From assembly GCA_036377475.1 (NCBI GenBank), contig DASUYI010000321.1, positions 1-27,405 of the forward strand: a DNA stretch of 27,405 nucleotides, written 5' to 3'. Shown one piece after another: positions 16,760 to 17,693 of the stretch (its first letter is position 1; each line of letters opens with the position of its first letter). The notes under the pieces are model-generated. The model was not told the origin of the DNA. It ran no database searches and worked only from the letters and a program-made list of their open reading frames with translations. A program made the position numbers and the translations under genes. The stretch comes from Steroidobacteraceae bacterium. Lineage in GTDB: Bacteria > Pseudomonadota > Gammaproteobacteria > Steroidobacterales > Steroidobacteraceae.

Positions 16760-16891
16760 CGTGCGACGAACGGCCGGATGGATTTCGGCCACGGTCCGTC
16801 GGGCTGCCGTGATCGTGTCGCTGTAGGGAGTCCGGCGAGACCGAGCGGTGTGCGCAAGTTGACTAACAATCGTTTCCATTCAGACTCACCT
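16760..16891. repeat. Direct repeat copy 1 (132 bp)
   Basis: 114 of 132 columns are identical to copy 2 in a manual alignment. The last 42 bp (16850-16891) are identical. Confidence 0.95.
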
Positions 16892-17070
16892 CACCATCAC
16901 TGACGCATCGTGTGGACACCCACTACCGCGTAGCCGACTTCCCCTTTAGCTACTTTCGCGGCGCGATTCGTGTCGCTGGCGACGGCAAACCTGGCTGACG
17001 GGACGCTGGCACTCATCGGATCCATGCGCATGCACGCAAAGCGCAATCGTCTCAGCGAGAGGATTTGCAG

Positions 17071-17553
17071 ATGGACCTCAGTCACTGGGCTGATGTCGCC
17101 GAAATCGTCGGTGCAGCGACCGTCGCGGGCGGAATTGTATTCGCGGTCGCCCAGTTGCTGGCCTTACGGCGACAGCGGCGCGAGCTTGCGACGATCGAGC
17201 TTGGGCGCTCATTCGAGAACCCGGACTTCGCCAGAGCGTTGCGTTTGGTGCTGTCGTTGCCCGCCGGCCTTGACGCTGCACAGCTGCGTGCCCGCGGGCC
17301 GGGTATCGAGGACGCCGCGGTCCTCGTTAGCCTGACAATCGAGTCGATCGGCCTGATGTGCCAGCGCGGAATTACTGACGTCGACGTGGTGTGGGACCTC
17401 ATGGGCGGCGTCGTCCTGACTGGTTGGGGCAACCTGTGCGGGTGGGTCGCGGATGTGCGTCGCGAGCAGCGCAATCCAAAGTTCGACGAGTGGTTCGAGT
17501 GGCTCGCGACCGACTTCGAGCGCCGCCGTATTACCCGCCCTGCAAGCACCTGA
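17071..17553 (+). CDS. Hypothetical protein with N-terminal TM, DUF4760-like
   Basis: AGAGGA RBS then ATG 17071. TM, then ESIGLMCQRGITD..W..VADVRREQRNPKFDEWFEWL, which resembles the DUF4760 pattern. The family call is from memory. Confidence 0.7.
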   Translation: MDLSHWADVAEIVGAATVAGGIVFAVAQLLALRRQRRELATIELGRSFENPDFARALRLVLSLPAGLDAAQLRARGPGIEDAAVLVSLTIESIGLMCQRGITDVDVVWDLMGGVVLTGWGNLCGWVADVRREQRNPKFDEWFEWLATDFERRRITRPAST

Positions 17554-17564
17554 CGGCGCCGTAT

Positions 17565-17693
17565 CGTGCGACGAACGGCGGGTGGATGACGGCTACCGGC
17601 CGTCGGGTTGCCAATCGTGTCGCTGTAGGGACCGCGGCGAGCCCGAACAGCGTGCGCAAGTTGACTAACAATCGTTTCCATTCAGACTCACCT
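17565..17693. repeat. Direct repeat copy 2 (129 bp)
   Basis: Begins 11 bp after the 17553 stop. Core 17652-17693 (gtgcgcaagttgactaacaatcgtttccattcagactcacct) is identical to 16850-16891. Confidence 0.95.

What the first reader, a model, noticed from the sequence alone, without database searches (positions are those of the whole stretch)
16760..17693. A single foreign-looking gene bracketed by a ~130-bp direct repeat with a perfect 42-bp core
Seen: copies at 16760-16891 and 17565-17693 share 114 of 132 aligned columns. All differences lie in the 5' ~90 bp, and the 3' 42 bp are identical (period 802 bp). The enclosed DUF4760-like gene uses codons rare in its neighbours (TTA, GTA, ATT, AGA, CTT). 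No transposase or integrase is nearby. Inference: an 802-bp unit (gene plus one repeat) entered by recombination at this element and could excise again, restoring a simple hydrolase/DUF3604 divergon. This would be a cassette-like gene-capture mechanism, or a duplicated regulatory module that places a new gene under the same control as the DUF3604 operon.
Basis: partly seen in the sequence, partly recalled or inferred. Interest (0 to 1): 0.65.

Follow-up and report, generated by a model that had tools for sequence, protein, structure and literature searches.

The report
Gene inserted between duplicated promoter copies
A small wandering gene of unknown function has landed in front of an operon of a soil bacterium, and the operon's promoter region was doubled around it; this is a real but already described kind of insertion, not a new gene-capture cassette.

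Summary
The repeat is real (114/132 columns, 42-bp identical core, period 802) and occurs only twice in the 71%-complete MAG, probably a Steroidobacteraceae bacterium. Related strains show the predicted empty site: hydrolase, one copy, DUF3604, no DUF4760 (two alleles, 322 and 326 bp against 320 predicted). The core is also 41-42/42 identical in those single-copy strains while the 5' part varies by 8-19%. So the perfect core reflects selection on a sigma70-like promoter, not a recombination site. Copy 2 groups with other strains' alleles rather than with copy 1 (4 sites to 0), which suggests DNA from a sister lineage. Close DUF4760 homologues (89-94% nt) sit in unrelated contexts without the repeat. 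attC, dif and IS1634 tests failed, no recombinase is nearby and no Rfam family matches. Codon usage is only mildly atypical (8th percentile). Verdict: an insertion with long target duplication (the class in Furuta 2010) with non-RM cargo, most likely a one-off recombination event kept because the operon retains its promoter. A second case lies at recX-alaS in the same genome. The scan has reported this kind of structure on other DNA. Interest 0.2.

The parts
15257..16648 (-). PDZ plus alpha/beta-hydrolase (Peptidase_S15-like) gene, 463 aa; left flank, divergent from the insert
   Evidence: Pfam; orthologues of the same length start at the same ATG. The longer 540-aa ORF starting inside the core is not conserved: indels break it in L094 and L099.
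16760..16891 (+). Repeat copy 1, the resident hydrolase/DUF3604 intergenic segment
   Evidence: 93% identical to the single copy in L094; its first ~50 bp also persist in strains lacking the operon
16850..16891 (+). 42-bp core of copy 1 with sigma70-like -35 TTGACT (16859-16864), 16-bp spacer and -10 CAGACT (16881-16886); the copy ends 5 bp after the -10 box
   Evidence: only 46 sites of this pattern in the whole genome; promoter function is inferred, not shown
16892..17045 (.). About 150-bp spacer of unknown origin, part of the insert
   Evidence: no convincing nucleotide or translated match in the own genome, 62 genus genomes or fetched loci; bridged to the core in run X2
17046..17555 (+). 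Mobile DUF4760 module: ~25-35 bp of leader with ribosome-binding site, plus ORF 17071-17553 (160 aa)
   Evidence: Pfam; 89-94% nt identity to L064, L065 and L100 starts at 17036-17046 and ends at 17530-17556, in three unrelated contexts
17565..17693 (+). Repeat copy 2, a more divergent allele of the same segment, directly before the DUF3604 leader
17652..17693 (+). 42-bp core of copy 2; putative promoter of the DUF3604 operon (-35 at 17661-17666, -10 at 17683-17688, 110 bp before the ATG)
   Evidence: same position (-111, -113) in the empty-site alleles; lies in the longest invariant run (45 bp) of the intergenic region, P = 0.0015
17694..17770 (+). Native 5' leader of the DUF3604 operon
   Evidence: 82-84% identical to L094 and L099, where it follows the single core
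17771..21568 (+). DUF3604 (17771-19705), PPIC-type PPIase (19710-20573) and HupE/UreJ (20570-21568) operon; right flank
   Evidence: Pfam; same order in L094-L098

Best explanation
This is a single insertion with a long (~130-bp) target duplication. The ancestral locus is hydrolase <- one intergenic element -> DUF3604 operon, and the 3' 42 bp of the element are the operon's promoter (empty site shown; promoter inferred from sequence and conservation). A DUF4760 gene, which moves between unrelated sites in this group of bacteria, entered with ~150 bp of foreign DNA just behind the -10 box. A second copy of the element sits on its far side. Most likely (inferred) no dedicated recombinase acted: DNA from a sister lineage, carrying DUF4760 in front of its own allele of the element, recombined homologously on the DUF3604 side and joined illegitimately at the end of the resident core, so both alleles were kept. 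The arrangement survives because copy 2 still drives the operon, and copy 1 can drive DUF4760 with the same signals (inferred). The 42-bp identity comes from purifying selection, not from recent exchange. Loss of the 802-bp unit by ordinary recombination between the cores is possible, but nothing shows it is programmed, and the excised piece has no mobility genes.
For: Empty sites: L094-L098 and L099; in-silico excision gives 320 bp against 322 and 326 bp observed. The core is 41-42/42 identical among all four copies while the 5' parts are only 81-92% alike. The 45-bp invariant run has P = 0.0015. The sigma70-like pattern has only 46 sites genome-wide. Copy 1 vs copy 2 in the 5' part (83%) is lower than copy 1 vs L094 (92%); 4 informative sites group copy 1+L094 against copy 2+L099 and none group the two copies. 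L261 shares the copy-2-type letters. Different alleles of this locus coexist in the same samples (L094/L107, L096/L105, L098/L106). DUF4760 homologues at 89-94% nt have other neighbours and no flanking repeat. The element is not dispersed. There is a parallel case at recX-alaS with 7 empty-site relatives. The class is described in PMC2853133 and homology-facilitated illegitimate recombination in PMC5361080.
Against: Donor origin rests on 4 sites and two independent empty-site alleles, apparently both from one sampling campaign. No donor allele (DUF4760 plus one element without copy 1) was found. In the passages read, homology-facilitated illegitimate recombination displaces resident DNA and is rare (PMC5361080); a duplication needs an unusual joint position. 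The strict promoter scan found nothing (CAGACT matches only 3 of 6). No RNA data test either promoter.
Confidence: 0.6

Rival explanations
1. In-place duplication: the element was copied from the resident chromosome during the insertion (break repair or template switching), and copy 2's 5' part then drifted or was overwritten by recombination with other strains. The end structure is the same; the source of copy 2 differs.
For: Both cores are 42/42 identical. Copy 2's 5' part no longer borders the hydrolase, so constraint may be relaxed. The recX-alaS copy 2 has decayed in this way.
Against: No informative site groups copy 1 with copy 2; copy 2 shares letters with single-copy alleles L099 and L261.
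Confidence: 0.2
2. The insert is ancestral in this lineage, and the single-copy alleles are products of repeat-mediated deletion.
For: L094 looks like a crossover in the core (copy-1-like 5' part plus native leader). The locus is deletion-prone: L261 keeps a HupE remnant. Repeat-flanked indels were mostly deletions in PMC3119063.
Against: It needs independent losses in at least two lineages ~90% alike, one with a copy-2-type 5' part. The gene is clearly mobile. No relative with both copies was found outside near-identical strains.
Confidence: 0.07
3. Footprint of a vanished mobile element, such as a long-duplication insertion sequence that lands behind -10 boxes or a decayed integrase island, of which only the cargo is left.
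For: Copy 1 ends 5 bp behind the -10 box, like the unchecked scan note e1-958995. The recX-alaS case resembles an island at a gene's 3' end with variable cargo.
Against: No terminal inverted repeat or transposase remnant in the insert. No IS1634 transposase found in G000, G031 or G085 (genomes 68-87% complete). A transposon duplication would start identical, so the copies should group together, and they do not.
Confidence: 0.07
4. A dedicated, reversible cassette system in which the element is a recombination site used to capture and excise genes.
For: An empty site exists, and the geometry allows a precise excision.
Against: The element is unique to this locus and is not attached to the gene elsewhere. 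It has no attC boxes and no dif match (XerD arm 4/11). The tyrosine recombinases found score best as XerC/XerD. Core identity is explained by selection. There is no significant fold (z -1.2 and +0.5).
Confidence: 0.03
5. Assembly chimera of two strains.
For: The MAG is fragmented (626 contigs) and the two copies look like alleles of different lineages. The DUF4760/copy-2 junction is not bridged among the listed contig pieces.
Against: A contig of run X2 runs from the core through the spacer into DUF4760 (16850-17160, 2 differences). Exact contig-end overlaps of 57 and 77 bp elsewhere in the MAG suggest k-mers longer than the 42-bp core (inference).
Confidence: 0.03

Closest known systems
Insertion with long target duplication (Nobusato et al. 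2000, not read, cited in PMC3874152; Furuta, Abe and Kobayashi 2010, PMC2853133)
   Same: An insert under 20 kb between direct repeats over 30 bp that are unique in the genome, one copy at the empty site in a relative, no mobile-element gene, and imperfect repeats (e.g. 384/412 in their Table 3).
   Different: Their cases carry restriction-modification genes; the cargo here is a 160-aa DUF4760 membrane-type protein with no PADLOC or nuclease match. The duplicated target here is a promoter, and the copies look like alleles of two lineages.
Homology-facilitated illegitimate recombination (as summarised in PMC5361080)
   Same: Foreign DNA enters with a homologous anchor on one side and an illegitimate joint on the other, without a recombinase.
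   Different: There it displaces resident genes; here resident DNA was kept and doubled. The mechanism is inferred, not shown.
Integron gene cassettes (attC/IntI)
   Same: A single small gene with little flanking DNA that is found in many contexts.
   Different: No RYYYAAC/GTTRRRY boxes, no array, no integron integrase found, and the repeat does not travel with the gene.
pdif/XerCD modules
   Same: One gene between two short conserved sites; the core begins like the XerC arm (8/11).
   Different: The XerD arm matches only 4/11, and the sites are 130-bp copies of local DNA.
IS1634-family elements with long target duplications
   Same: A long duplication ending just behind a -10 box (lead from an unchecked scan note).
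   Different: No transposase and no terminal inverted repeats; the family was not found in three genomes of the clade.

Membership tests
Insertion with long target duplication (structural class) | Direct repeats longer than 30 bp flank the insert | tested here: met
   129-132 bp, 114/132
Insertion with long target duplication (structural class) | Empty-site allele with one copy in a relative | tested here: met
   L094-L098, L099
Insertion with long target duplication (structural class) | Repeat unique in the genome (not a dispersed repeat, tRNA or IS) | tested here: met
   two copies only, no Rfam family; genome 71% complete
Insertion with long target duplication (structural class) | Insert under 20 kb with no mobility gene | tested here: met
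   673 bp between copies, DUF4760 only
Insertion with long target duplication (structural class) | Direction is gain, not loss in the relatives | tested here: inconclusive
   parsimony favours gain (two empty lineages, mobile gene), but no strain tree could be built
RM-linked subclass of Furuta 2010 | Insert holds restriction and modification genes | tested here: not met
   DUF4760 only; no PADLOC or NCBIfam match
Integron cassette | attC site with RYYYAAC and GTTRRRY boxes | tested here: not met
   no box on either strand of 16741-17720
Integron cassette | Integron integrase in the genome | tested here: inconclusive
   three tyrosine recombinase matches, all best XerC/XerD, one cut by a contig end; genome 71% complete
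pdif module | 28-bp dif-like sites with a conserved XerD arm | tested here: not met
   best site 8/11 + 4/11 against E. coli dif recalled from memory
IS/MITE | Terminal inverted repeats or transposase, and dispersed copies | tested here: not met
Sigma70 promoter | -35/-10 hexamers at 16-18 bp spacing | tested here: inconclusive
   TTGACT-N16-CAGACT, 46 such sites genome-wide; misses the strict scan
Sigma70 promoter | Transcription start just downstream | not testable with these tools
   no RNA holder listed

The most novel reading that the evidence does not exclude
This soil lineage has a recurrent, recombinase-free route for gaining accessory genes in which the promoter of the downstream operon is doubled around the newcomer (two cases in one incomplete MAG: DUF3604 and recX-alaS), so that new genes join the operon's control at once and can be shed again by exchange between the conserved cores; an unrecognised promoter-directed mechanism would lie behind it.
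Probability: 0.08. Interest if true: 0.6.

Novelty: new member of a known kind. Interest (0 to 1): 0.2.

Why it matters
As it stands it is a clean, small example showing that insertion with long target duplication is not limited to restriction-modification cargo. It also shows that a perfect repeat core can come from promoter selection rather than from a recombination site. The mechanism of such insertions is still unsettled in the papers read, and the hint that the two copies are alleles of different lineages favours inter-strain recombination over copying in place. It would matter more only if a survey of the clade showed that promoter doubling is a frequent, directed route of gene gain.

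Tried and rejected
Rfam: only a chance HIV-1 SL4 match at E = 5. Structured RNA: folding z-scores -1.9 to +0.5, and the two copies fold differently. Exact scans for the core in JGI metagenomes, GTDB genomes and viral contigs, and a plasmid BLAST: nothing (these collections did not return the empty-site contigs, so they show only that the core is not widespread). Core with up to 3 mismatches in 62 genus genomes: none. No similar motif upstream of more distant DUF3604 genes. Operator guesses from memory (Fur 10/19, Zur 11/22, FNR 6/10, LacI-type 8/10) are each matched as well by 900 to 58,000 genome sites, and no LacI-family gene was found in G000, so no regulator is named. The minus-strand ORFs starting in the cores are not conserved in L094 or L099 and do not explain the core. 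The spacer as a gene remnant: no match. DUF4760 function: no PADLOC or NCBIfam hit, one PHROG of unknown function, Atlas returns only DUF4760; one passing mention in the literature. Sequencing runs: no RNA holder listed. No 802-bp skip among the 15 joints shown, 40 not shown, contigs only; this is no evidence either way. Run X7 has no cover over DUF4760 while one of its contigs starts 30 bases before the end of core 2; not interpretable from contigs. The protein searches gave no further alleles. The look-up cap stopped me from reading P0052, P0054, P0061, P0063 and P0069.

Full report
Observation. The repeat is as described: 16760-16891 and 17565-17693 share 114 of 132 columns, every difference is 5' of a 42-bp identical core, and the core period is 802 bp. 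There is no third copy in the 2.95-Mb, 626-contig, 71%-complete assembly. The enclosed gene (17071-17553) is DUF4760. The flanks are a PDZ/alpha-beta hydrolase on the minus strand and a DUF3604 - PPIase - HupE/UreJ operon on the plus strand. Codon usage of DUF4760 is the lowest of the ten genes validly scored in the window but is not extreme: CAI at the 8th percentile, GC3 at the 15th, GC 65%. The sister genome G031 is a Steroidobacteraceae soil MAG, so the host is very likely of that family.

Empty sites exist. Cluster members of the flanking proteins led to contigs with hydrolase, one copy of the element and DUF3604, without DUF4760: L094-L098 (one allele, five samples) and L099. Removing 802 bp in silico gives a 320-bp intergenic region; the natural ones are 322 and 326 bp and align throughout. 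Other relatives lack the whole operon: G031 and L105-L107 join the hydrolase to the CBS gene, and L261 keeps a 147-bp HupE remnant, which marks a deletion. These still carry the first ~50 bp of the element. So the element is ordinary intergenic DNA of this locus, not something the gene brought as its own site.

Why the core is perfect. In the single-copy strains the core is 41/42 and 42/42 identical to ours, while the 5' parts are 81-92% alike. Across three alleles the longest invariant run of the 330-column intergenic alignment is the 45 bp over the core (shuffle P = 0.0015). It holds TTGACT-N16-CAGACT about 110 bp before the DUF3604 start in all alleles, a pattern with only 46 sites in the genome, although it misses the strict consensus scan. 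I infer a sigma70-type promoter under purifying selection. Copy 1 ends 5 bp behind the -10 box, so it would still be a whole promoter pointing at DUF4760. No regulator can be named: Fur, Zur, FNR and LacI-type matches are at background level.

The copies are not a fresh duplicate. In the 5' part copy 1 is 92% like L094 but only 83% like copy 2. Four informative sites group copy 1 with L094 and copy 2 with L099, and none group the two copies. L261 shares copy-2-type letters. This is few sites, but it points to copy 2 being an allele from another lineage. Lineages with different alleles occur in the same samples, so exchange is plausible.

The cargo moves by itself. The three closest DUF4760 homologues whose contigs I read (89-94% nt) share only the ORF and 25-35 bp of leader with the window, each has other neighbours, and none has a flanking repeat. 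More distant ones are again in other contexts; 18 of 62 genus genomes hold a homologue. The 150-bp spacer has no match. The protein's function is unknown.

No dedicated machinery found. There are no attC boxes and no terminal inverted repeats and no dif site. The tyrosine recombinases found score best as XerC/XerD, and no IS1634 transposase was found in three incomplete genomes. There is no Rfam family or significant fold and no dispersed copies.

Assembly. A contig of run X2 spans core 1, the spacer and the start of DUF4760 with 2 differences, and X1 holds 17015-17497. One of the runs may be the source sample. The right junction is not bridged among the pieces shown, so a chimera is unlikely but not formally excluded.

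A parallel case. A genome-wide self-comparison shows mostly coding repeats, plus an 88-bp, 81% repeat on contig C475. There the 3' end of recX, which holds a promoter-like TACAAT site ahead of alaS, is doubled around a TetR gene and a small accessory gene. Seven relatives have a single copy with recX next to alaS, and G031 has both copies with a sulfatase-like gene beside the TetR gene. Both cases are what survival bias predicts: an insertion that separates an operon from its promoter persists only if the promoter is doubled.

Mechanism. Shown: insertion/empty-site polymorphism, locus-specific repeat, conserved core, mobile cargo, no recombinase nearby. Inferred: promoter function; gain rather than loss; entry by inter-strain recombination with one homologous and one illegitimate joint (0.6). 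The rivals are copying in place (0.2), loss in the relatives (0.07), footprint of a vanished element (0.07), a true cassette system (0.03) and a chimera (0.03). From general knowledge, 42 identical bases 0.8 kb apart allow occasional deletion; that needs no special system.

Known kinds and verdict. The structure meets the criteria for insertion with long target duplication in PMC2853133 except for restriction-modification cargo (see also PMC3874152). It is a member of the structural class but not of the RM subclass. Unchecked scan notes report the same class on other DNA. It is a new member of a known kind, interest 0.2. The most novel reading left open, a directed promoter-doubling route of gene gain in this clade, has probability 0.08 and interest 0.6 if true.

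Noticed in passing
L270:4151-4238 and 5345-5431 (G000 contig C475): Second insertion with long duplication: the recX 3' end holding a promoter-like site for alaS is doubled (88 bp, 81%) around a TetR gene and a 188-aa gene. Seven relatives are empty; G031 has both copies with TetR plus a 647-aa sulfatase-like gene instead.
   Followed up: partly
window 16809-26193: The hydrolase-CBS interval is a variable locus with at least four states: nothing (G031, L105-L107), HupE remnant (L261), DUF3604 operon (L094-L098), and operon plus DUF4760 plus a molybdenum oxidoreductase/XdhC/MobA cluster (21.6-26.2 kb, window only).
   Followed up: partly
window 10908-14085: A further ~3.2-kb block, including an S8 subtilase gene (11931-13268), is missing at the same place in G031 and L105-L107; no long flanking repeat was seen.
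   Followed up: no
window 3-5936 (- strand): Open frame of at least 1978 codons running off the contig. Orthologues of 2055 aa in L105/L106 carry SpvB, FG-GAP, TcdB_toxin_midN and RHS domains, so it is a conserved Rhs/Tc-like protein of the clade.
   Followed up: no
G000 C500:2323-2407, C500:4325-4411, C545:629-714: An 85-bp non-coding element in three copies (79-83% alike); the first lies about 80 bp before a gene start. Possibly a shared promoter or small RNA.
   Followed up: partly
G000 C341, C361, C467, C538: Short intergenic arrays of a GCGGATA-type heptamer recur on several contigs; unexplained.
   Followed up: no
genus genomes: DUF3604 has up to 12 matches per genome in this genus, often clustered; the closest copy, in G085, appears frameshifted and has a different upstream region.
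   Followed up: partly
L064:1215-1604: The gene upstream of DUF4760 in L064 begins much like the accessory gene inside the recX-alaS duplication (by eye only), hinting at a shared pool of small mobile membrane-protein genes.
   Followed up: no
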